Under the pieces are notes generated by a model. The model searched no databases, was not told the origin of the DNA, and saw only the letters and a program-made list of their open reading frames with translations. Below, piece by piece: positions 27,277 through 52,122 of a DNA stretch of 64,000 bases; the stretch's first letter is position 1; every line of letters begins with the position of its first letter. This DNA is from an uncultured Gammaproteobacteria bacterium (lineage in GTDB: Bacteria; Patescibacteriota; Microgenomatia; UBA8517). The position numbers and the translations under genes are program-made. The stretch lies in contig CAZWNZ010000002.1 in NCBI GenBank assembly GCA_964635715.1, positions 10,100 to 74,099 of the forward strand, read 5' to 3'.

Positions 27277-28062
27277 ATGAATCTTTTACATGTTTTTATT
27301 CTTTCTGTGGTTGAGGGTCTGACTGAATTTCTTCCTATCTCTTCAACCGGACATCTAATATTGGTATCTAAAATCTTGAATCTGGAATCTAGTGACTTTT
27401 TAAAAACTTTTGAGATTGTAATTCAACTTGGAGCGATTATGGCTGTAGTTGTTCTTTACACAAAAAAACTATTGAGTATCAAGTTTATTAAAAAACTTTT
27501 TGTGGCCTTTATCCCCACGGCAATTGTAGGCTTTACACTATATCCCATTATCAAAAATGTTTTGCTTGGAAGTTCCAGTATTACTCTGAATGCTTTGTTT
27601 TGGGGAGGTGTGGTTTTAATATTAATCGAATTAATACTAAAGAACTCAAAACTCAAAAATCAAAACTCAAAATTTACTGCAAGCATAGGTACAATAAGCT
27701 ATAAACAGGCATTTTTAATTGGATGCTTCCAGTGCCTTTCAGTAATTCCGGGAATGTCGAGGGCTGCATCAACAATTATTGGCGGTTTGGCGGTGAAACT
27801 CGACAGGTCTACCGCCACTGAGTTTTCATTTCTTTTGGCAGTTCCGACAATGGTGGCTGCAACCGGCTATGATTTGTTCAAATCGCGCGATCTTATTTCT
27901 CAAGGAGGATTTCTTACTCTAACCGTCGGAACTGTTCTTTCGTTTATCTTTGCAATGATTGCGATTAAATTTCTTATCGGCTACGTTAAAAAGCACGATT
28001 TTACCTGGTTCGGGGTGTATAGGATAATACTTGCCATCTTGTTTTGGATTTTTGTTGTATAA
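27277..28062 (+). CDS. uppP: Undecaprenyl-diphosphate phosphatase
   Basis: VVEGLTEFLPISSTGHLIL motif and an 8-TM BacA family fold. Contains a low-complexity insertion KNSKLKNQNSKF. Confidence 0.85.
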   Translation: MNLLHVFILSVVEGLTEFLPISSTGHLILVSKILNLESSDFLKTFEIVIQLGAIMAVVVLYTKKLLSIKFIKKLFVAFIPTAIVGFTLYPIIKNVLLGSSSITLNALFWGGVVLILIELILKNSKLKNQNSKFTASIGTISYKQAFLIGCFQCLSVIPGMSRAASTIIGGLAVKLDRSTATEFSFLLAVPTMVAATGYDLFKSRDLISQGGFLTLTVGTVLSFIFAMIAIKFLIGYVKKHDFTWFGVYRIILAILFWIFVV

Positions 28063-28096
28063 AAACAACCCCCGCTTTTTGGCGGGAGTTGTTTTG
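28063..28096 (+). terminator. Intrinsic terminator after uppP
   Basis: aacaacccccgc-tttttg-gcgggagttgtt hairpin followed by tt. Confidence 0.5.
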
Positions 28097-49363: not shown

Positions 49364-50107
49364 ATGACATACAAATCCGATGAAATAAAAAAAGTTGTAG
49401 AAGAAGGTTATGCAAATATCGCTTCTTCTTCCGGTTGCTGCGGTGGCTGTGCCTGTGGCTCAAACAGATATGCACAAAAACAATCTGGACAATTTGGTTA
49501 TTCAGATAAAGAGATGGATGAAGTTCCTGCCGGTTCAAACTTGGGTCTTGGTTGTGGCAATCCTACAGCCATAGCTTCCCTGAAACTTGGTCAAACTGTT
49601 CTAGATTTAGGTTCCGGCGCCGGTTTTGATGCCTTTTTAGCTGCTAATCAGGTAGGTAAAACTGGAAAAGTCATTGGTGTAGACATGACAGATGAGATGC
49701 TTAAACTAGCTAGTGAAAACGCAATCAAAAATAATTATAAAAATGTAGAATTCAGAAAAGGTGACATAGAAAAACTACCTGTTGATGACAATTCGATAGA
49801 CGTAATAATTTCTAACTGTGTAATTAACCTGGCCCCTAACAAACTCAAAGTTTTTAAAGAAGCTTACCGTGTTTTAAAAAACGGTGGTAAATTAATGGTT
49901 TCTGATGTTGTTTTGGCCAAAAACTTACCGGAAAATATAAAGAACGATAAGGAATTACTTGTTGGGTGTATCAGTGGAGCGATCCTTAAACAGGATTATT
50001 TGAATTTATTAAACAAAGTTGGATTTAATGACATTACAATTCTTAAGGAAGTTCCTGCGTTTTTAAAAGATTATGGTCTCAGCATAACTTATTCTGCGAC
50101 TAAATAG
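49364..50107 (+). CDS. arsM: SAM-dependent methyltransferase, arsenite methyltransferase (ArsM)-like
   Basis: N-terminal Cys-rich [13 protein letters not shown], then class I MTase motifs [11 protein letters not shown] and [10 protein letters not shown]. 247 aa. Confidence 0.65.
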
Positions 50108-50212
50108 CATTAATTACTTCCACCCGACTTTTACCCGCAGGGCTTAGGTTTCTTTTTGCTCTCTTTTTAATCCAACCGGCCGGCATATATTTATGTTATT
50201 TATTATTTATTA

Positions 50213-50270
50213 CTTGCAGGGTCGGACCCTGCAAGGTGTATATAGTATATATAGTGTATTAGTATTTTTG
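50213..50270 (+). repeat. Palindrome plus AT-rich/T-run element that shares ~29 nt with the pilD coding sequence
   Basis: CTTGCAGGGTCGGACCCTGCAAG palindrome (50213-50235), then gtgtatatagtat...tagtattttt. 50220-50248 matches pilD 2388-2416 (ggtcCgaccctAcaaggtgtatatagtat) at 27/29 positions. Confidence 0.5.
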
Positions 50271-50279
50271 GGGTATTGG

Positions 50280-50333
50280 GGTGGTCGACGCGAGTCGAAC
50301 GCGCAAACCCCCCGCCCTGGCGGGGTGCTCTAA
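50280..50333 (-). other. 3' half of a split tRNA-like element (variable, T-arm, acceptor 3' strand, C73), preceded by a palindromic direct repeat
   Basis: Minus strand TTAGAGCACCCCGCCAGGGCGGGG-GGTTT-GCGCG-TTCGACT-CGCGT-CGACCAC-C. The acceptor 3' strand is perfectly complementary to the 5' half at 50684-50725. Confidence 0.55.
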
Positions 50334-50575
50334 CTTAGACCTAATAATTTTTTGAAAGCGTTTCCTCCTTTATATGATTTAATCAGATATTCTCTTTTAG
50401 AGGCTAATTGTCTAGATTCAAACTCTTCCGAATAAATCAGTTTATATGGTCCTTTGTTTCTTGTAGAGATATTCTTACCATGGTTATGTTCAATTAATCT
50501 ACGTTGTATGTCTGAAGTTGACCCAATATAATATCTACCATTTTTAATACTCTGAAGAATATATACATAAAACAT
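50330..50575 (-). CDS. Small GIY-YIG nuclease-superfamily protein (YhbQ/UPF0213-like)
   Basis: MFYVYILQSIKNGRYYIGSTSDIQRRLIEHNHGK...KGPYKLIYSEEFESRQLASKREYLIKSYKGGN shows GIY...YIG, R, E and N core residues. The ORF-track N-terminal extension is a translation of tRNA-His. Confidence 0.7.
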   Translation of the reverse strand: MFYVYILQSIKNGRYYIGSTSDIQRRLIEHNHGKNISTRNKGPYKLIYSEEFESRQLASKREYLIKSYKGGNAFKKLLGLS

Positions 50576-50585
50576 ATTTGGTGTG

Positions 50586-50659
50586 GGTGGGTGAGCGGAT
50601 TCGAACCGCCAACCTCCTGCTCCACAGGCAGGCGCTCTAACCATTGAGCTACACCCACC
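50586..50659 (-). tRNA. tRNA-His (anticodon GTG) with encoded G-1
   Basis: G-GTGGGTG-TA-GCTC-AATGGTTA-GAGC-G-CCTGC-CTGTGGA-GCAGG-AGGTT-GGCGG-TTCGAAT-CCGCT-CACCCAC-C. G-1:C73 is His-specific. Confidence 0.85.
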
Positions 50660-50683
50660 AAATAAGTATTACGAAGCAACCAC

Positions 50684-50725
50684 CCCGCCATGGCGGGGTG
50701 CTCTAACCATTGAGCTACGACCACC
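50684..50725 (-). other. 5' half of a split tRNA-like element (G-1, acceptor 5' strand, D-arm) ending in the palindromic direct repeat
   Basis: Minus strand G-GTGGTCG-TA-GCTC-AATGGTTA-GAGC-A-CCCCGCCATGGCGGGG. The D-arm is nearly identical to that of tRNA-His. No T-arm follows. Confidence 0.55.
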
Positions 50726-50796
50726 AAGTCAACATGAGTATTTTATCATTTTTGCTTCAAAATGGCTAAGCTTGATTATTACACGCCGAATTCCAA

Positions 50797-52122
50797 TTAT
50801 CTTCTGGAAACTGAATAAGTAATTGGGTAATAGAGGAAGGCTGCAGGCGAATCTTCAACCAAAAATCTCTGAAAATCCATATATATTTTCTTGCGTGAAG
50901 TGAGGTCAATCTCACTTCTTCCATCCTCAAGAAGTTTATCAATTCTTACATCTTCATAGTGAGTTATATTTGTTGAGGTCTGAGTGGAATGCCACAACGA
51001 ATATTGATCGGGGTCGTCAGGAATATTAAGTATTGCGAGGAAAGCCTGATATTCGGTAGGAGTAATTGTTACAACCTGCAAATTAACATTTATACCCACT
51101 ACACGCCAGTTTTCGGCTATTATTTCAGCTTTATCCAAAAGAAGCGAAGGTGTAGCAAGGTTTATAGTAATATCTGTTTGTTTGCTTGTTTCTTTATAAT
51201 CTTTAATCATTTCCTTCGCTTTCTCGGGATCGTAATTGTATTGTTTAACCTGGGAATTATAAGCCCATGAATTAATGGCTATGGGGCTTATGGCTCGTGA
51301 GCCGCCTAGTTTTTCTTTGTCTATTGCATAAGTTAAAGCTTGGCGCATTTCCTTTTCGGCCAATATGCCGTCTTGCGTATTAAAGAAAACTGCAACAAAC
51401 TCATCAAAATTGGAGGAACTGCTGATTTTTATCTTTTTCCACTCATCAAATGGACTTATGCCAAAAAGATCCTCCATCCGGTCGACCTCACCAAGCTCAA
51501 AAGCAATCTTTAAGCTTTCTTCTGTCGGGTAGAACTTATATGTTAAATTACCATTTTCTTCAGAGCTTAAATTTATTTCTTCGACGAAAGAACCATTTAA
51601 CGAAATATCTTCCACTTTCCATTCACCTGTTCCCAAAAGACCGGATTTAAATGTAGGTTTCGAAACTACGGAAGGGAAAGCAGAATATGTATTATCAAGT
51701 TTAAAAATAATTGTTTTTTCATCGGGTTTTTCTACCAATACATCAGAAAATTGATAATTAATACTCTCACTGGTAACTTTGTCTCCATCCTGCCAAACCA
51801 CATCATTTTTGAGAGTGAAAATCCATGTCTTTCCTTTATCAGTAGTTTCCCAAGAAGAAGCAAGATCAGGAATAACACTACCTTCAGAGTCAACCTGAGT
51901 TAATCCGTTACTAACTAATCTTAAAATTGAGTTGGGTAGATCACTAACAGTATATCTGCCCGTCTGACCGATTTTTAGATTATTTTTAAAATTAAGAGTG
52001 GGTATTAAAAATCTGAGCAGAAAGAAGATAAACACACCCAAACCTATTCCAAGAAAAATGAGAATTCTGAATCTTGAAAAAAAAGCTCCAACCAGCCTAA
52101 AAATGTATCGGAGATTTAGCAT
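50797..52122 (-). CDS. ABC-transporter substrate-binding protein (family 5, peptide/nickel type), membrane-anchored
   Basis: N-terminal TM anchor and a ~400-aa bilobal extracytoplasmic domain. Its size and layout fit the SBP_bac_5 family. Confidence 0.45.
   Translation of the reverse strand: MLNLRYIFRLVGAFFSRFRILIFLGIGLGVFIFFLLRFLIPTLNFKNNLKIGQTGRYTVSDLPNSILRLVSNGLTQVDSEGSVIPDLASSWETTDKGKTWIFTLKNDVVWQDGDKVTSESINYQFSDVLVEKPDEKTIIFKLDNTYSAFPSVVSKPTFKSGLLGTGEWKVEDISLNGSFVEEINLSSEENGNLTYKFYPTEESLKIAFELGEVDRMEDLFGISPFDEWKKIKISSSSNFDEFVAVFFNTQDGILAEKEMRQALTYAIDKEKLGGSRAISPIAINSWAYNSQVKQYNYDPEKAKEMIKDYKETSKQTDITINLATPSLLLDKAEIIAENWRVVGINVNLQVVTITPTEYQAFLAILNIPDDPDQYSLWHSTQTSTNITHYEDVRIDKLLEDGRSEIDLTSRKKIYMDFQRFLVEDSPAAFLYYPITYSVSRR

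What the first reader, a model, noticed from the sequence alone, without database searches (positions are those of the whole stretch)
50280..50725. Split tRNA-like gene whose halves flank an intact tRNA-His and a GIY-YIG nuclease gene, with palindromic direct repeats at both junctions
On the minus strand, a 5' tRNA half (G-1, GTGGTCG acceptor, canonical D-arm; 50725-50684) and a 3' half (variable loop, GCGCG-TTCGACT-CGCGT T-arm, CGACCAC acceptor, C73; 50333-50280) are perfectly complementary in the acceptor stem and would form a His-type (G-1:C73) cloverleaf. They are separated by ~350 bp. The intervening DNA contains a complete tRNA-His(GTG) and a YhbQ-like GIY-YIG nuclease ORF. Each half ends or begins with a ~24-nt imperfect direct repeat, TTAGAGCA-CCCCGCC-A(T/G)G-GCGGGG, which includes a 7-bp palindrome around an NcoI-like core. 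That repeat occupies the place of an anticodon arm but cannot form a canonical 7-nt loop with U33. The layout is compatible with three readings: a mobile GIY-YIG cassette inserted into a tRNA(-like) gene, leaving a duplicated target; a tRNA gene carrying a large insertion or intron; or a tRNA-derived att-like site. None of these is annotated by ordinary gene finders, and the ORF track mistranslates the tRNA as protein.
Basis: partly seen in the sequence, partly recalled or inferred. Interest (0 to 1): 0.75.

Follow-up and report, generated by a model that had tools for sequence, protein, structure and literature searches.

The report
tRNA-nested GIY-YIG nuclease cassette
A tiny selfish DNA cassette (one 81-residue nuclease gene, its own spare tRNA-His gene and two copies of a GC-rich palindrome) sits inside, and has broken, the bacterium's original tRNA-His gene; the same layout recurs next to tRNA genes in dozens of other uncultured bacteria and I found no description of it in the papers I searched.

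Summary
On the minus strand, a 5' piece (50725-50676) and a 3' piece (50334-50277) of one former tRNA-His gene bracket an intact tRNA-His(GTG) and an 81-aa GIY-YIG ORF. The repeat is 32 nt (29/32 identical) and contains a 16-nt palindrome where the anticodon arm should be.

The halves are not a functional split tRNA, an intron or an att site. They are the remains of the resident tRNA-His. Related genomes carry a single uninterrupted tRNA-His, with no nuclease gene, behind the same promoter. The enclosed tRNA-His is a different allele.

The palindrome is not a decayed anticodon arm. In 80 loci encoding homologues, 75 have a co-oriented tRNA within 100 nt. Hairpins with a CCGC core are 24-fold enriched next to the ORF. 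They replace tRNA arms, or sit in tRNA loops, of partial tRNA copies.

The protein is a minimal Slx1/UPF0213 (YhbQ)-type nuclease.

Best reading: a homing-type selfish cassette that lives in tRNA genes and supplies a replacement tRNA. The role of the hairpin and the way the cassette moves are inferred, not shown. Six full-text searches found no prior description. The closest known case is phage T4 SegB.

The parts
50740..50768 (-). Promoter-like site of the resident tRNA-His gene: TAGCCA, 17-nt spacer, then TG-extended -10 TAAAAT.
   Evidence: Found by the consensus scan. The TG-TAAAATA box and leader align with the promoter of the uninterrupted tRNA-His genes in L132, L134 and L135. Function is inferred.
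50676..50725 (-). 5' fragment of the resident tRNA-His. It contains G-1, acceptor GTGGTCG, the D arm, A26, the palindrome in place of anticodon arm 27-43, variable loop TGGTT, and the first 2 nt of the T stem.
   Evidence: Read directly from the sequence. The 5' half matched 45 metagenome loci, all ordinary tRNA-His genes. The Rfam tRNA model does not call it on its own.
50683..50698 (.). Left hairpin: the perfect 16-nt palindrome CCCCGCCATGGCGGGG.
   Evidence: It belongs to the family-wide CCGC-core hairpin class.
50660..50675 (-). 16-nt spacer (ttcgtaatacttattt). It serves as the 5' leader of the enclosed tRNA-His.
   Evidence: Read from the sequence. Comparable spacers occur in L004, L010 and L053.
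50585..50659 (-). Intact tRNA-His(GTG) with encoded G-1 and acceptor GTGGGTG/CACCCAC. It is a different allele from the split gene and is read here as the cassette-borne replacement copy.
   Evidence: ARAGORN and Rfam RF00005 at 73.4 bits. Compared with the split gene, it differs at acceptor pairs 5:68 and 6:67, at position 26 and in the T arm.
50330..50575 (-). 81-aa GIY-YIG nuclease gene. The ATG lies 9 nt after the tRNA 3' end. The stop codon TAG lies inside the D-loop/D-stem motif GTTAGAGC of the 3' fragment.
   Evidence: Pfam PF01541 at E=3e-17. Homologues are mostly 78-85 aa. Conserved residues include Y5, Y16, G18, R26, H30 and E62. The closest solved structures are UPF0213 proteins 1zg2 and 1ywl, followed by SLX1.
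50277..50334 (-). 3' fragment of the resident tRNA-His. It contains the end of the D loop and the D-stem 3' strand, A26, the palindrome, the variable loop, T arm GCGCG-TTCGACT-CGCGT, acceptor CGACCAC, C73 and CCA.
   Evidence: Read from the sequence. Its T arm and acceptor nearly equal those of the intact tRNA-His genes in L087, L117 and L126.
50310..50325 (.). Right hairpin: CCCCGCCAGGGCGGGG on the minus strand, one change from the left copy.
50676..50707 (-). Left copy of the 32-nt direct repeat (tRNA positions about 19-50, with the palindrome in place of the anticodon arm).
   Evidence: the repeat finder family D1, 91% identity.
50303..50334 (-). Right copy of the 32-nt direct repeat.
   Evidence: the repeat finder family D1.
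50197..50251 (-). Inverted repeat (CTTGCAGGGTC / GACCCTGCAAG) followed by A/T-rich sequence, about 30 nt downstream of the 3' fragment. It may be the terminator of the transcription unit.
   Evidence: the repeat finder pair I1. The terminator scan did not call it. Function is inferred only.

Best explanation
The locus is a resident tRNA-His gene invaded by a small selfish cassette.

What the cassette contains:
- a complete replacement tRNA-His gene;
- an 81-aa Slx1/UPF0213-type GIY-YIG nuclease gene that begins 9 nt after that tRNA;
- two copies of a CCCCGCC..GGCGGGG palindrome. The palindromes now stand where the resident gene's anticodon arm was, one in each half.

How the locus is expressed (inferred): the resident promoter upstream of the 5' half drives one transcript. 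The order is dead 5' half, spare tRNA-His, nuclease mRNA, dead 3' half. The cell keeps a working tRNA-His because the cassette supplies one.

How it spreads (inferred): by homing-type double-strand-break repair or gene conversion. The nuclease breaks a tRNA gene, and repair copies the cassette from a filled allele. The two tRNA halves serve as homology arms. Because tRNA sequences are so conserved, those arms also work across species.

The hairpin is a sequence-specific element tied to the nuclease. It could be the nuclease's binding or cleavage site, or a substitution that disables the broken copy. Which of these applies is not settled.

The two halves are remnants, not parts of a functional split tRNA.
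For: Shown for this locus:
- Anatomy of the locus.
- The split gene is a true tRNA-His by descent. Its 5' half matched 45 metagenome loci, all ordinary tRNA-His genes, and its T arm and acceptor nearly equal those of L087/L117/L126. ARAGORN calls it tRNA-His once a normal anticodon arm is restored.
- Empty alleles exist. L132/L133, L134 and L135 share the upstream synteny and the same TG-TAAAATA promoter and leader. Each has one uninterrupted tRNA-His, with no nuclease gene and no hairpin.
- The enclosed tRNA is a different allele. It differs from the split gene by two compensated acceptor base pairs and in the T arm.
- L011 is a second His locus with the same property. Its flanking halves (GTGGCTG/CAGCCAC) match each other but not the enclosed gene (GTGGTAT/ATACCAC).
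- L004 and L010 have mosaic flanks, as gene conversion would produce.

Shown for the family:
- 75 of 80 loci have a tRNA within 100 nt of the ORF, and all 75 are co-oriented.
- Partial copies of the same tRNA flank the ORF.
- CCGC-core hairpins occur at 2.82/kb near the ORF against 0.12/kb elsewhere. Other GC-rich hairpins are only about 4-fold enriched.
- Protein clades track tRNA isotype, with occasional switches.
- Tandem tRNA+ORF arrays exist.
- Catalytic residues are conserved across homologues.

Precedent:
- T4 SegB is a free-standing GIY-YIG homing endonuclease in a tRNA cluster that recognises the tRNA T-psi-C motif (PMC2330249).
- SegB drives tandem tRNA+segB amplification (PMC13096335).
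Against: - No cleavage activity or target has been shown.
- The 81-aa protein has no DNA-binding domain, unlike SegB or I-TevI.
- The 2006 superfamily survey derives selfish GIY-YIG enzymes from the UvrC+ lineage, not from the Slx1 lineage (PMC1564403).
- Within the window's own lineage, the filled loci (window, L004, L001, and partly L131) could all descend from one old insertion. Their ORF identity (74-85%) is close to that of the neighbouring SBP gene. Recent mobility is therefore not shown here.
- In most other loci the fragments are 100% identical to the enclosed tRNA. That fits in-place duplication as well as import followed by gene conversion.
- Classical homing logic does not explain how the enclosed intact tRNA escapes cleavage.
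- It also does not explain why hairpins replace different arms in different lineages, or how the 32-44-nt overlap between the two halves arises.
Confidence: 0.62

Rival explanations
1. Hairpin-ended transposon or integrating mini-circle. The two palindromes are the element's ends. Because each is its own reverse complement, they act as both direct and inverted terminal repeats. The dimeric nuclease cuts them like a GIY-YIG restriction enzyme or cruciform resolvase, and host ligase or repair rejoins the DNA. The element would then excise and insert by cut-and-ligate, or by single crossover at the hairpin-bearing segment. That would leave the 32-44-nt direct repeat.
For: - Identical palindromes bound the [tRNA+ORF] unit in the window, L010, L014, L016 and L008.
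- The overlap between the halves has exactly the form that single-crossover integration at that segment would leave.
- The stem sequence is conserved while the loop varies from 2 to 7 nt. This suggests recognition of an intra-strand hairpin or cruciform.
- The nearest structural relatives include the structure-specific nuclease SLX1.
- The GIY-YIG restriction enzyme Cfr42I cuts the related palindrome CCGC/GG as a tetramer (abstract of PMC2241918, seen).
Against: - Empty alleles carry a normal anticodon arm with no hairpin, so a hairpin-to-hairpin reaction cannot explain first entry.
- Hairpins also occur singly, in pairs, and inside pseudo-tRNAs away from the ORF junction.
- A hydrolytic GIY-YIG enzyme cannot carry out strand transfer on its own.
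- No excised or solo-hairpin allele was found for this locus.
Confidence: 0.17
2. Not mobile. The nuclease is a resident, possibly useful, structure-specific enzyme tied to tRNA genes, for example to resolve R-loops or cruciforms at highly transcribed tRNA genes, or to act on tRNA itself. The broken tRNA copies and hairpins are local scars of its activity, produced by in-place duplication.
For: - In most loci the fragments are 100% identical to the adjacent intact tRNA.
- Local tandem amplifications are common.
- The Slx1-like prokaryotic family was predicted to be a repair family and is recurrently fused or linked to a COG4123 methyltransferase. One case is fused to a TrmH (tRNA Gm18 methylase) orthologue (PMC1564403).
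- The arrangement in the window's lineage could be inherited vertically.
Against: - Close relatives do well with a single uninterrupted tRNA-His and no such gene.
- Homologues sit at more than 13 different tRNA isotypes in several phyla. Clades are specific to an isotype, with occasional switches.
- In the window and in L011 the enclosed tRNA is a different allele from the broken one. In-place duplication does not give that result.
- A conserved hairpin sequence shared across phyla is not what random scars would look like.
Confidence: 0.12
3. RNA-level function. The two halves pair in the primary transcript to form a tRNA-like scaffold, or a genuine split or intron-containing tRNA. This structure is processed or spliced, or it stabilises the nuclease mRNA. 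The GC hairpins act as RNA stabilisers.
For: - The acceptor strands pair 7/7 with G-1:C73, and the joined halves fold as a cloverleaf.
- One promoter probably drives the whole unit.
- The ORF always has a hairpin on the side away from the intact tRNA.
Against: - The rejoined molecule has no usable anticodon loop.
- No intron model matches.
- Acceptor complementarity drops to 4/7 in L004 and is also lost in L010. The halves are decayed in L001.
- Most flanking fragments in the family lack an acceptor strand or a T arm, so they cannot be RNase P or RNase Z substrates.
- The stem sequence itself is conserved rather than merely stable. This argues against a generic RNA stabiliser.
Confidence: 0.05

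Closest known systems
Phage T4/T6 SegB (free-standing GIY-YIG homing endonuclease in a tRNA gene cluster)
   Same: - It is a GIY-YIG nuclease gene outside any intron or intein, embedded among tRNA genes.
- It recognises a conserved tRNA-gene motif (the T-psi-C stem-loop) and is inherited together with neighbouring tRNA genes (PMC2330249).
- It drives tandem amplification of a tRNA+segB segment through microhomology between the tRNA 5' region and the segB 3' end (PMC13096335). The tRNA+ORF arrays in L048 and L051, and the overlap of the ORF's 3' end with a tRNA 5' end, parallel this.
   Different: - SegB is phage-borne. From my own knowledge, not checked here, it is much larger than 81 aa and carries a DNA-binding region.
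- It sits between tRNA genes and is not reported to break one.
- The protein here is 81 aa, of the Slx1/UPF0213 type, and chromosomal in CPR, Bacteroidota and other bacteria. It lies inside a broken tRNA gene, comes with a replacement tRNA, and has conserved palindromes that replace tRNA arms.
- Only distant homologues (<=45% identity) exist in the phage collection.
UPF0213 / YhbQ / YazA, the prokaryotic Slx1-like minimal GIY-YIG proteins (structures 1zg2 and 1ywl)
   Same: - These are the best sequence matches among solved structures (E=9.5e-13 and 6.4e-10).
- They have the same minimal single-domain architecture, as described in PMC1564403 and PMC7017083.
   Different: - Those proteins are regarded as housekeeping or repair factors of unknown function. 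The 2006 survey I searched (PMC1564403) does not mention nesting in tRNA genes or hairpin partners.
- The subfamily here has a distinctive C-terminal IKSYKGGxAFKKL motif.
- It is nearly always adjacent to a tRNA gene.
'Fractured genes' (a host gene split in two by a free-standing homing endonuclease gene; Dassa et al. 2009, PMC2677866)
   Same: Two halves of one conserved gene are separated by a free-standing endonuclease gene. The endonuclease may bring its own expression signals with it.
   Different: - In fractured genes the host function is rescued by split inteins that rejoin the protein halves. Here it is rescued by a complete spare gene copy carried inside the insert.
- The new endonuclease family predicted in that paper is Vsr-like, and the hosts are mainly phage.
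tRNA-targeting integrative elements (integrase-mediated; the element carries a partial tRNA copy that restores the gene)
   Same: - The element lands in a tRNA gene and keeps tRNA function by bringing tRNA sequence with it.
- Direct repeats of tRNA sequence flank the insert.
   Different: - No integrase is present.
- The insert is under 400 bp.
- A whole tRNA is supplied rather than a 3' portion.
- The repeat contains a foreign palindrome that is absent from empty sites.
- This comparison rests on general knowledge of integrative elements.
IS200/IS605 elements and REP/RAYT systems (hairpin-dependent mobile DNA)
   Same: A small element with one short ORF and conserved GC-rich hairpins near its ends. 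The hairpin structure, rather than the loop sequence, is what is conserved.
   Different: - Those systems use an HUH/Y1 transposase that forms covalent intermediates. Here the only protein is a hydrolytic GIY-YIG nuclease.
- The hairpins here are not dispersed through the genome. Only the two copies occur in 64 kb.
- This resemblance is recalled from general knowledge and was not tested.

Membership tests
GIY-YIG nuclease superfamily (Pfam PF01541) | A match to the GIY-YIG catalytic domain profile above the curated cut-off | tested here: met
   63.1 bits against a cut-off of 22.6, E=3.1e-17, covering residues 1-67.
GIY-YIG nuclease superfamily (Pfam PF01541) | Conserved catalytic residues: the Tyr residues of the GIY and YIG motifs, an Arg, a His/Asn and a Glu | tested here: met
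   Y5, Y16, G18, R26, H30, E50, R61 and E62 are invariant in 30 homologues. Assigning catalytic roles to these residues is by analogy only.
Slx1 / UPF0213 (YhbQ, YazA) lineage | Closer in sequence to Slx1/UPF0213 proteins than to UvrC or I-TevI-type enzymes | tested here: met
   Profile search against PDB: 1zg2 at 9.5e-13, 1ywl at 6.4e-10, SLX1 at 6.5e-5 to 1.3e-3, I-TevI at 4e-4, UvrC at 0.67.
Slx1 / UPF0213 (YhbQ, YazA) lineage | Minimal stand-alone domain without auxiliary domains (prokaryotic members, PMC1564403) | tested here: met
   The protein is 81 aa and the only domains found are GIY-YIG and the overlapping T5orf172.
Slx1 / UPF0213 (YhbQ, YazA) lineage | Structure-specific cleavage of branched, flap or stem-loop DNA | not testable with these tools
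   This needs biochemistry.
Free-standing homing endonuclease (Seg/Mob type) | The nuclease gene lies outside any intron or intein | tested here: met
   No intron family matched in Rfam at E<=10. The ORF stands alone between tRNA sequences.
Free-standing homing endonuclease (Seg/Mob type) | Presence/absence polymorphism at the same genomic site in related genomes | tested here: met
   Filled: window, L004, L001. Empty: L132/L133, L134, L135, all behind the same promoter and synteny. The relatives are only about 70-78% identical in the neighbouring protein, so this is between lineages, not within a population.
Free-standing homing endonuclease (Seg/Mob type) | Site-specific cleavage of the allele that lacks the endonuclease gene | not testable with these tools
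   This needs an in vitro cleavage assay on an empty tRNA-His allele.
Free-standing homing endonuclease (Seg/Mob type) | A separate DNA-binding module joined to the catalytic domain, as in I-TevI and SegB | tested here: not met
   The 81-aa protein contains only the catalytic domain. For this reason I describe it as working like a homing element but do not file it as a Seg-family member.
Free-standing homing endonuclease (Seg/Mob type) | Co-conversion of flanking markers (mosaic flanks) | tested here: inconclusive
   Flanks mix resident and cassette types in L004 and L010. They are pure resident type in the window and L011. This is compatible with co-conversion but not proof of it.
tRNA gene with a group I or group II intron | An intron ribozyme fold between the exons | tested here: not met
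   cmscan at E<=10 over 49900-51100 lists no intron family.
tRNA gene with a group I or group II intron | Exons that join into a tRNA with a 7-nt anticodon loop | tested here: not met
   The joined halves give a 16-nt arm with a 2-nt 'anticodon', which ARAGORN reports as tRNA-???.
Split tRNA genes (Nanoarchaeum type) | Halves break in or next to the anticodon loop and together restore a complete anticodon arm | tested here: not met
   Both halves carry the whole palindrome, and no anticodon can be restored.
Split tRNA genes (Nanoarchaeum type) | Complementarity between the halves is conserved in relatives | tested here: not met
   L004 pairs at only 4 of 7 acceptor positions, and the halves in L001 are decayed.
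Integrase-mediated tRNA-targeting island | A tyrosine or serine recombinase gene inside the insert | tested here: not met
   The insert holds only the tRNA and the 81-aa ORF. The neighbouring genes are a methyltransferase and a solute-binding protein.
IS200/IS605-like hairpin transposon | An HUH/Y1 transposase (or TnpB) encoded by the element | tested here: not met
   The only ORF is GIY-YIG. The Y1_Tnp gene next to L001-L003 is a separate, oppositely oriented neighbour and is absent from the window.

The most novel reading that the evidence does not exclude
This would be a previously unrecognised class of autonomous mobile element.

- Composition: a cassette of about 0.3-0.4 kb made of a minimal Slx1-type GIY-YIG nuclease plus a cognate CCCGCC/GGCGGG hairpin.
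- Target recognition: it would recognise tRNA genes by their DNA cloverleaf or cruciform structure and break them in loop regions.
- Footprint: it would replace tRNA arms with tight hairpins.
- Host survival: it would supply or duplicate a working tRNA.

If so, the Slx1 lineage, thought to be purely housekeeping, would include a widespread selfish branch. tRNA genes in CPR, Bacteroidota and other phyla would be shaped by it.
Probability: 0.3. Interest if true: 0.85.

Novelty: new variant of a known kind. Interest (0 to 1): 0.72.

Why it matters
- New host-rescue strategy for a selfish nuclease gene. Known solutions hide the gene in a self-splicing intron or intein, or place it between genes. 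This cassette breaks an essential single-copy tRNA gene and brings a spare copy.
- Possible new role for a poorly understood protein family. The minimal Slx1/UPF0213 nucleases have no established function. This subfamily appears in at least 327 places in the collection of one genome per species.
- A candidate substrate to test. The conserved hairpin could be assayed directly with the purified protein.
- Practical consequences for annotation. Gene finders extend the ORF into the tRNA, as in the 104-aa database entry. tRNA finders either miss the broken copies or call hairpin-substituted pseudo-tRNAs as real tRNAs (L051). tRNA counts in reduced CPR genomes can be wrong as a result.
- If the nuclease really reads tRNA-gene structure, it could also be of interest as a tool.

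Tried and rejected
Readings rejected:
- Intron. Rfam at E<=10 and intron-aware ARAGORN found nothing.
- Functional split tRNA. The joined product has no anticodon, and complementarity is lost in siblings.
- att site of an integrase island. No recombinase gene lies in or next to the insert.
- The palindrome as a decayed anticodon arm. The same CCGC-core hairpin accompanies homologues at Ile, Thr, Gly, Pro, Ser and Tyr genes in other phyla.
- The hairpin as a generic terminator or RNA stabiliser. The stem sequence, not just its stability, is conserved. The one other hairpin in the window (28071) is an ordinary terminator unrelated to the element.
- Defence-system membership. PADLOC gave only a meaningless weak hit.
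- Phage origin. Only distant phage homologues were found.

Searches that led nowhere:
- Six full-text literature searches found no description of tRNA-nested Slx1-type GIY-YIG cassettes.
- The metagenome scan for the 5' half returned only ordinary tRNA-His genes. It gave no unsplit hairpin-bearing copy and no closer sibling.

Not attempted:
- Structure prediction and fold search were not run, because sequence matches to solved UPF0213 and SLX1 structures were already clear.
Full report
**1.

Reading the minus strand gives the following order.
- A promoter-like TAGCCA-17-TG-TAAAAT site at 50768-50740.
- A 5' tRNA piece at 50725-50676. It contains G-1, acceptor GTGGTCG, a canonical D arm and A26. 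Then come the 16-nt perfect palindrome CCCCGCCATGGCGGGG, variable loop TGGTT and the first two bases of a T stem.
- A 16-nt spacer.
- An intact tRNA-His(GTG) at 50658-50585, with G-1 at 50659 (ARAGORN; Rfam 73.4 bits).
- Nine bases, then an 81-aa ORF (ATG 50575, stop 50332-50330) that matches the GIY-YIG domain at E=3e-17.
- A 3' tRNA piece at 50334-50277, overlapping the stop codon. It contains GTTAGAGC, A26, the palindrome with one change (AGG), the variable loop, T arm GCGCG-TTCGACT-CGCGT, acceptor CGACCAC, C73 and CCA.

The palindrome pattern has zero expected chance matches and occurs only at these two places in the window.

The two acceptor strands pair 7/7. The joined halves fold as a cloverleaf (-38.1 kcal/mol, z=-3.15). 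The 104-aa ORF in the mechanical list and in the public protein set (P0001) over-extends into the tRNA. Most homologues are 78-85 aa and begin MFYVY.

**2. The split gene is a real former tRNA-His**

The Rfam tRNA model does not call either half. ARAGORN calls the joined halves a tRNA with a 2-nt 'anticodon'. It calls them tRNA-His(GTG) as soon as a normal His anticodon arm is substituted.

A metagenome scan with the 5' half returned 45 loci. All are ordinary intact tRNA-His(GTG) genes without a GIY-YIG gene. Three of them (L087, L117, L126) have a T arm and acceptor nearly identical to the window's 3' half.

The two halves therefore descend from one normal tRNA-His gene of the 'GTGGTCG/CGACCAC' type. 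Its anticodon arm has been replaced by the palindrome.

The tRNA-His enclosed between the halves is a different allele. It has acceptor GTGGGTG/CACCCAC, so pairs 5:68 and 6:67 both differ in a compensated way. Position 26 is G rather than A, and the T arm is different.

**3. Siblings and empty sites**

Close homologues of the nuclease lie in the same layout.
- L004 (74% protein identity) has a 5' piece with ACCCGCCCTGGCGGGT, an intact tRNA-His, the ORF and a 3' piece. Its 3' piece now carries the T arm and acceptor of the enclosed tRNA and pairs with its 5' piece at only 4 of 7 positions.
- In L001-L003 (85% identity) both pieces are badly decayed.

The halves are thus not conserved as a pair.

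Using the neighbouring solute-binding protein as a handle, I fetched relatives with the same upstream gene order: transglutaminase-like protein, UvrC, holin-like protein, SecG, solute-binding protein.
- L132/L133, L134 and L135 (71-72% protein identity) carry a single uninterrupted tRNA-His(GTG) with a normal anticodon arm. They have no GIY-YIG gene and no palindrome. That tRNA lies behind the same TG-TAAAATA box and leader that precede the window's 5' piece.
- L131 (78%) has a hairpin-bearing 5' piece plus an intact tRNA-His but no ORF. A serine recombinase gene abuts the tRNA.

The insert is absent from related lineages, and the palindrome arrived with it.

**4. The pattern is family-wide**

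A scan of one genome per species found 327 stretches encoding relatives, and 80 loci were kept.
- In 75 of 80 loci a tRNA gene lies within 100 nt of the ORF, and in 60 within 30 nt. All 75 are on the same strand as the ORF. The background in the same loci is 0.10 tRNA per kb.
- The tRNA is either 1-12 nt upstream of the ATG (His, Ile, Thr, Gly, Pro) or at or overlapping the stop codon (Ser, Tyr, Gly, Lys, Asp, Glu).
- Hosts are mostly Patescibacteria (CPR). Bacteroidales, Ignavibacteria-like, Omnitrophota, Neomarinimicrobiota and Lentisphaeria also appear.

Nearly every locus also holds partial copies of the same tRNA, usually 100% identical to the intact one. These copies are combined with GC-rich hairpins.
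- L016 (tRNA-Thr) is the mirror image of the window. The order is 5' piece (positions 1-59 with CCCCGCCGGTGGCGGGG in place of the anticodon arm), ORF, intact tRNA-Thr, then 3' piece (16-76 with the same hairpin). The two pieces overlap by 42 nt.
- L010, L014, L008, L049, L053, L062 and L075 follow the window's order.
- In Ser and Tyr loci, one or two hairpins are inserted in the D loop (after nt 14-16) or exactly between nt 36 and 37 of the anticodon loop.
- In Bacteroidales tRNA-Pro arrays, the copy after each ORF has its D arm replaced by hairpins (L051), or both its D and T arms (L048). The anticodon arm stays intact. ARAGORN still calls the L051 copy a tRNA-Pro.

**5. The hairpin is a specific partner of the gene**

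- With a pattern-based count, 63 of 81 loci have a CCCGC(C)..(G)GCGGG hairpin within the flanks, at 2.31/kb against 0.13/kb elsewhere.
- An unbiased census of all perfect hairpins (stem >=6, loop 2-7) gave three figures. CCGC-core hairpins occur at 2.82/kb near the ORF against 0.12/kb far from it (24-fold). Other GC-rich hairpins occur at 0.62 against 0.16. AT-rich hairpins occur at 3.65 against 2.33.
- The modal stem is 7 bp, (C/T)CCCGCC, and the modal loop is 3 nt. The innermost pair covaries: C-G 89 times, T-A 17, A-T 6, G-C 2.

A conserved stem sequence with a free loop length points to sequence-specific recognition of an intra-strand hairpin or cruciform. It does not point to a generic terminator or RNA stabiliser. 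The only other such hairpin in the window (28071) is an ordinary terminator.

**6. The protein**

The closest solved structures are the UPF0213 proteins BH0048 (1zg2, E=9.5e-13) and EF2693 (1ywl). SLX1, I-TevI and UvrC follow.

[quoted passage not shown] The GIY-YIG motif residues are invariant in 30 homologues, and a C-terminal IKSYKGGxAFKKL motif marks the subfamily.

The 2006 superfamily survey describes prokaryotic Slx1-like proteins as minimal stand-alone domains predicted to act in repair. It derives the selfish GIY-YIG enzymes from the other (UvrC+) lineage. It notes fusions to a COG4123 methyltransferase and to TrmH, but says nothing about tRNA-gene nesting (PMC1564403).

PHROGs gives weak 'homing endonuclease' hits and PADLOC gives nothing useful. 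The phage collection has only distant relatives.

**7. Evidence for movement**

- Protein clades track tRNA isotype and layout. There are separate Pro, Gly, Tyr, Ser(TGA), Ser(GGA), Ile, Thr and His clades. Occasional switches lead to Lys, Asp, Gln or Glu. This fits faithful homing to one tRNA gene plus rare jumps.
- In the window and, independently, in L011, the two flanking pieces match each other but not the enclosed tRNA-His. In L011 the flanks are GTGGCTG/CAGCCAC and the enclosed gene is GTGGTAT/ATACCAC.
- In L004 and L010 the flanks are mosaics of resident and cassette types.

Compensated differences between two separated pseudogene halves cannot arise by drift. The enclosed tRNA was therefore imported, or is an old paralogue that the empty alleles do not show.

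Tandem tRNA+ORF arrays also exist: a 359-nt period in L048 and L051, and 66-99-nt arrays of 5' pieces in L048, L062 and L047. They show that the locus is recombinationally active.

**8. Most likely mechanism**

Shown:
- The cassette is absent from related genomes.
- It sits inside the resident tRNA-His transcription unit.
- It contains an intact tRNA-His of a different allele.
- The nuclease is conserved.
- The hairpin is a conserved partner of the gene.

Inferred:
- The resident promoter transcribes the dead 5' piece, the spare tRNA-His, the nuclease mRNA and the dead 3' piece as one unit.
- The nuclease breaks an intact tRNA gene.
- Repair copies the cassette from a filled allele, using the two tRNA pieces as homology arms. 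This also lets the element cross species, because tRNA sequence is conserved.
- Selection keeps only insertions that bring a working tRNA of the same isotype.

Unresolved:
- What exactly is cut.
- Why the enclosed tRNA is spared.
- How the 32-44-nt overlap between the pieces forms.
- Why hairpins replace different arms in different lineages.

The main rival is a hairpin-ended cut-and-ligate or single-crossover model. It explains the overlap and the identical terminal palindromes. It does not explain first entry into hairpin-free empty sites.

**9. Comparison with known systems**

The nearest known system is T4/T6 SegB. It is a free-standing GIY-YIG homing endonuclease in a tRNA cluster that recognises the T-psi-C motif (PMC2330249). 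It drives tandem tRNA+segB amplification (PMC13096335).

The cassette here works like such an element but fails one defining feature of Seg/I-TevI-type enzymes, namely a separate DNA-binding module. It also belongs to a different GIY-YIG lineage. I therefore do not file it as a member.

'Fractured genes' (PMC2677866) share the idea of a host gene split by a free-standing endonuclease, but there the function is rescued by split inteins. Integrase islands and IS200/IS605 elements share single features only.

Six full-text searches found no description of this arrangement. The library does not cover subscription journals, so prior description cannot be excluded.

**10. Verdict**

The functional split-tRNA and intron readings are rejected. 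The mobile-cassette reading is supported and extended.

I rate it a new variant of a known kind (a free-standing, homing-type nuclease element at tRNA genes). A substantial chance remains that the hairpin-plus-Slx1-type nuclease pair defines a new class of element.

Noticed in passing
window 50330-50644 (-); protein P0001: The public protein set and the mechanical ORF list carry a 104-aa version of the nuclease. Its first 23 residues are a translation of the tRNA-His gene. Several homologues of 96-138 aa look like the same over-extension.
   Followed up: partly
L001-L003, 3383-4066 (-): An IS200-type Y1_Tnp transposase gene lies 55 nt downstream of the GIY-YIG ORF, on the opposite strand. These are exactly the siblings in which the 3' tRNA piece has decayed. 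It may be an unrelated insertion that destroyed that piece.
   Followed up: no
L131, 3775-5466: This sibling has a hairpin-bearing 5' tRNA-His piece and an intact tRNA-His but no nuclease ORF. The 5' piece also carries a second small hairpin (ccccaattaaatcgggg) in its D loop. A 515-aa serine recombinase gene on the opposite strand overlaps the tRNA 3' end. A second mobile element may have targeted the same tRNA.
   Followed up: partly
L048, 1100-2600; L051, 1380-2330: These Bacteroidales loci hold tandem arrays with a 359-nt period: tRNA-Pro or pseudo-tRNA-Pro plus an identical ORF, three copies each. L048 also has at least four 66-nt repeats. Each repeat consists of the upstream flank, the first 10 nt of the tRNA and a hairpin.
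   Followed up: partly
L051, 1737-1813 and 2096-2172; L015: ARAGORN calls pseudo-tRNA-Pro copies as ordinary tRNA-Pro(CGG), even though their D arm is replaced by CCCCGCCATCGGCGGGG and G18/G19 are missing. tRNA counts in such genomes may be inflated.
   Followed up: yes
L045, 1151-1400: This is a nearly full-length pseudo-tRNA-Ser without an ORF. It carries two hairpins exactly between nt 36 and 37 and a further structured insert of about 90 nt in the T arm. Hairpin insertions may accumulate in dead tRNA copies independently of the ORF.
   Followed up: no
window 50576-50584 and class-U loci (L008, L010, L014, L060, L062, L075): Where the intact tRNA is upstream, the ATG follows the tRNA 3' end by only 1-12 nt, with no Shine-Dalgarno-like sequence. 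After tRNA 3' processing the nuclease mRNA would be almost leaderless.
   Followed up: no
L009, L012, L013, L019, L029, L043 and others: Where the intact tRNA is downstream, the last 3-15 codons of the ORF are encoded by the acceptor and D-arm sequence of that tRNA. For tRNA-Ser the C terminus reads ...GEVA* from GGAGAGGTCGCATAG. The protein C terminus therefore changes with the tRNA isotype.
   Followed up: partly
L006, L009-L011, L016, L035, L039 and others (record titles): Many loci with CPR-like content are labelled 'uncultured Gammaproteobacteria', 'Pseudomonadales' or 'Bacteroidales' in TPA_asm MAG records, and one is labelled Heimdallarchaeota (L033). Some of these taxonomic labels look unreliable.
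   Followed up: no
window 27145-50658: The window holds 15 tRNA genes between 27 kb and 51 kb, yet only the tRNA-His locus carries a nuclease cassette or element-type hairpins.
   Followed up: yes
window 28066-28095: The hairpin CCCCCGCTTTTTGGCGGG followed by a T-rich run lies right after the ORF at 27277-28062. It is an ordinary intrinsic terminator and only superficially resembles the element hairpin.
   Followed up: yes
literature (PMC1564403): The 2006 GIY-YIG survey reports recurrent fusion or operon linkage of prokaryotic Slx1-like nucleases with a COG4123 methyltransferase, and one fusion with a TrmH (tRNA Gm18 methylase) orthologue. It took the TrmH fusion as a hint of a role in RNA metabolism. 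This earlier tRNA link may be related to the tRNA-gene association seen here.
   Followed up: no
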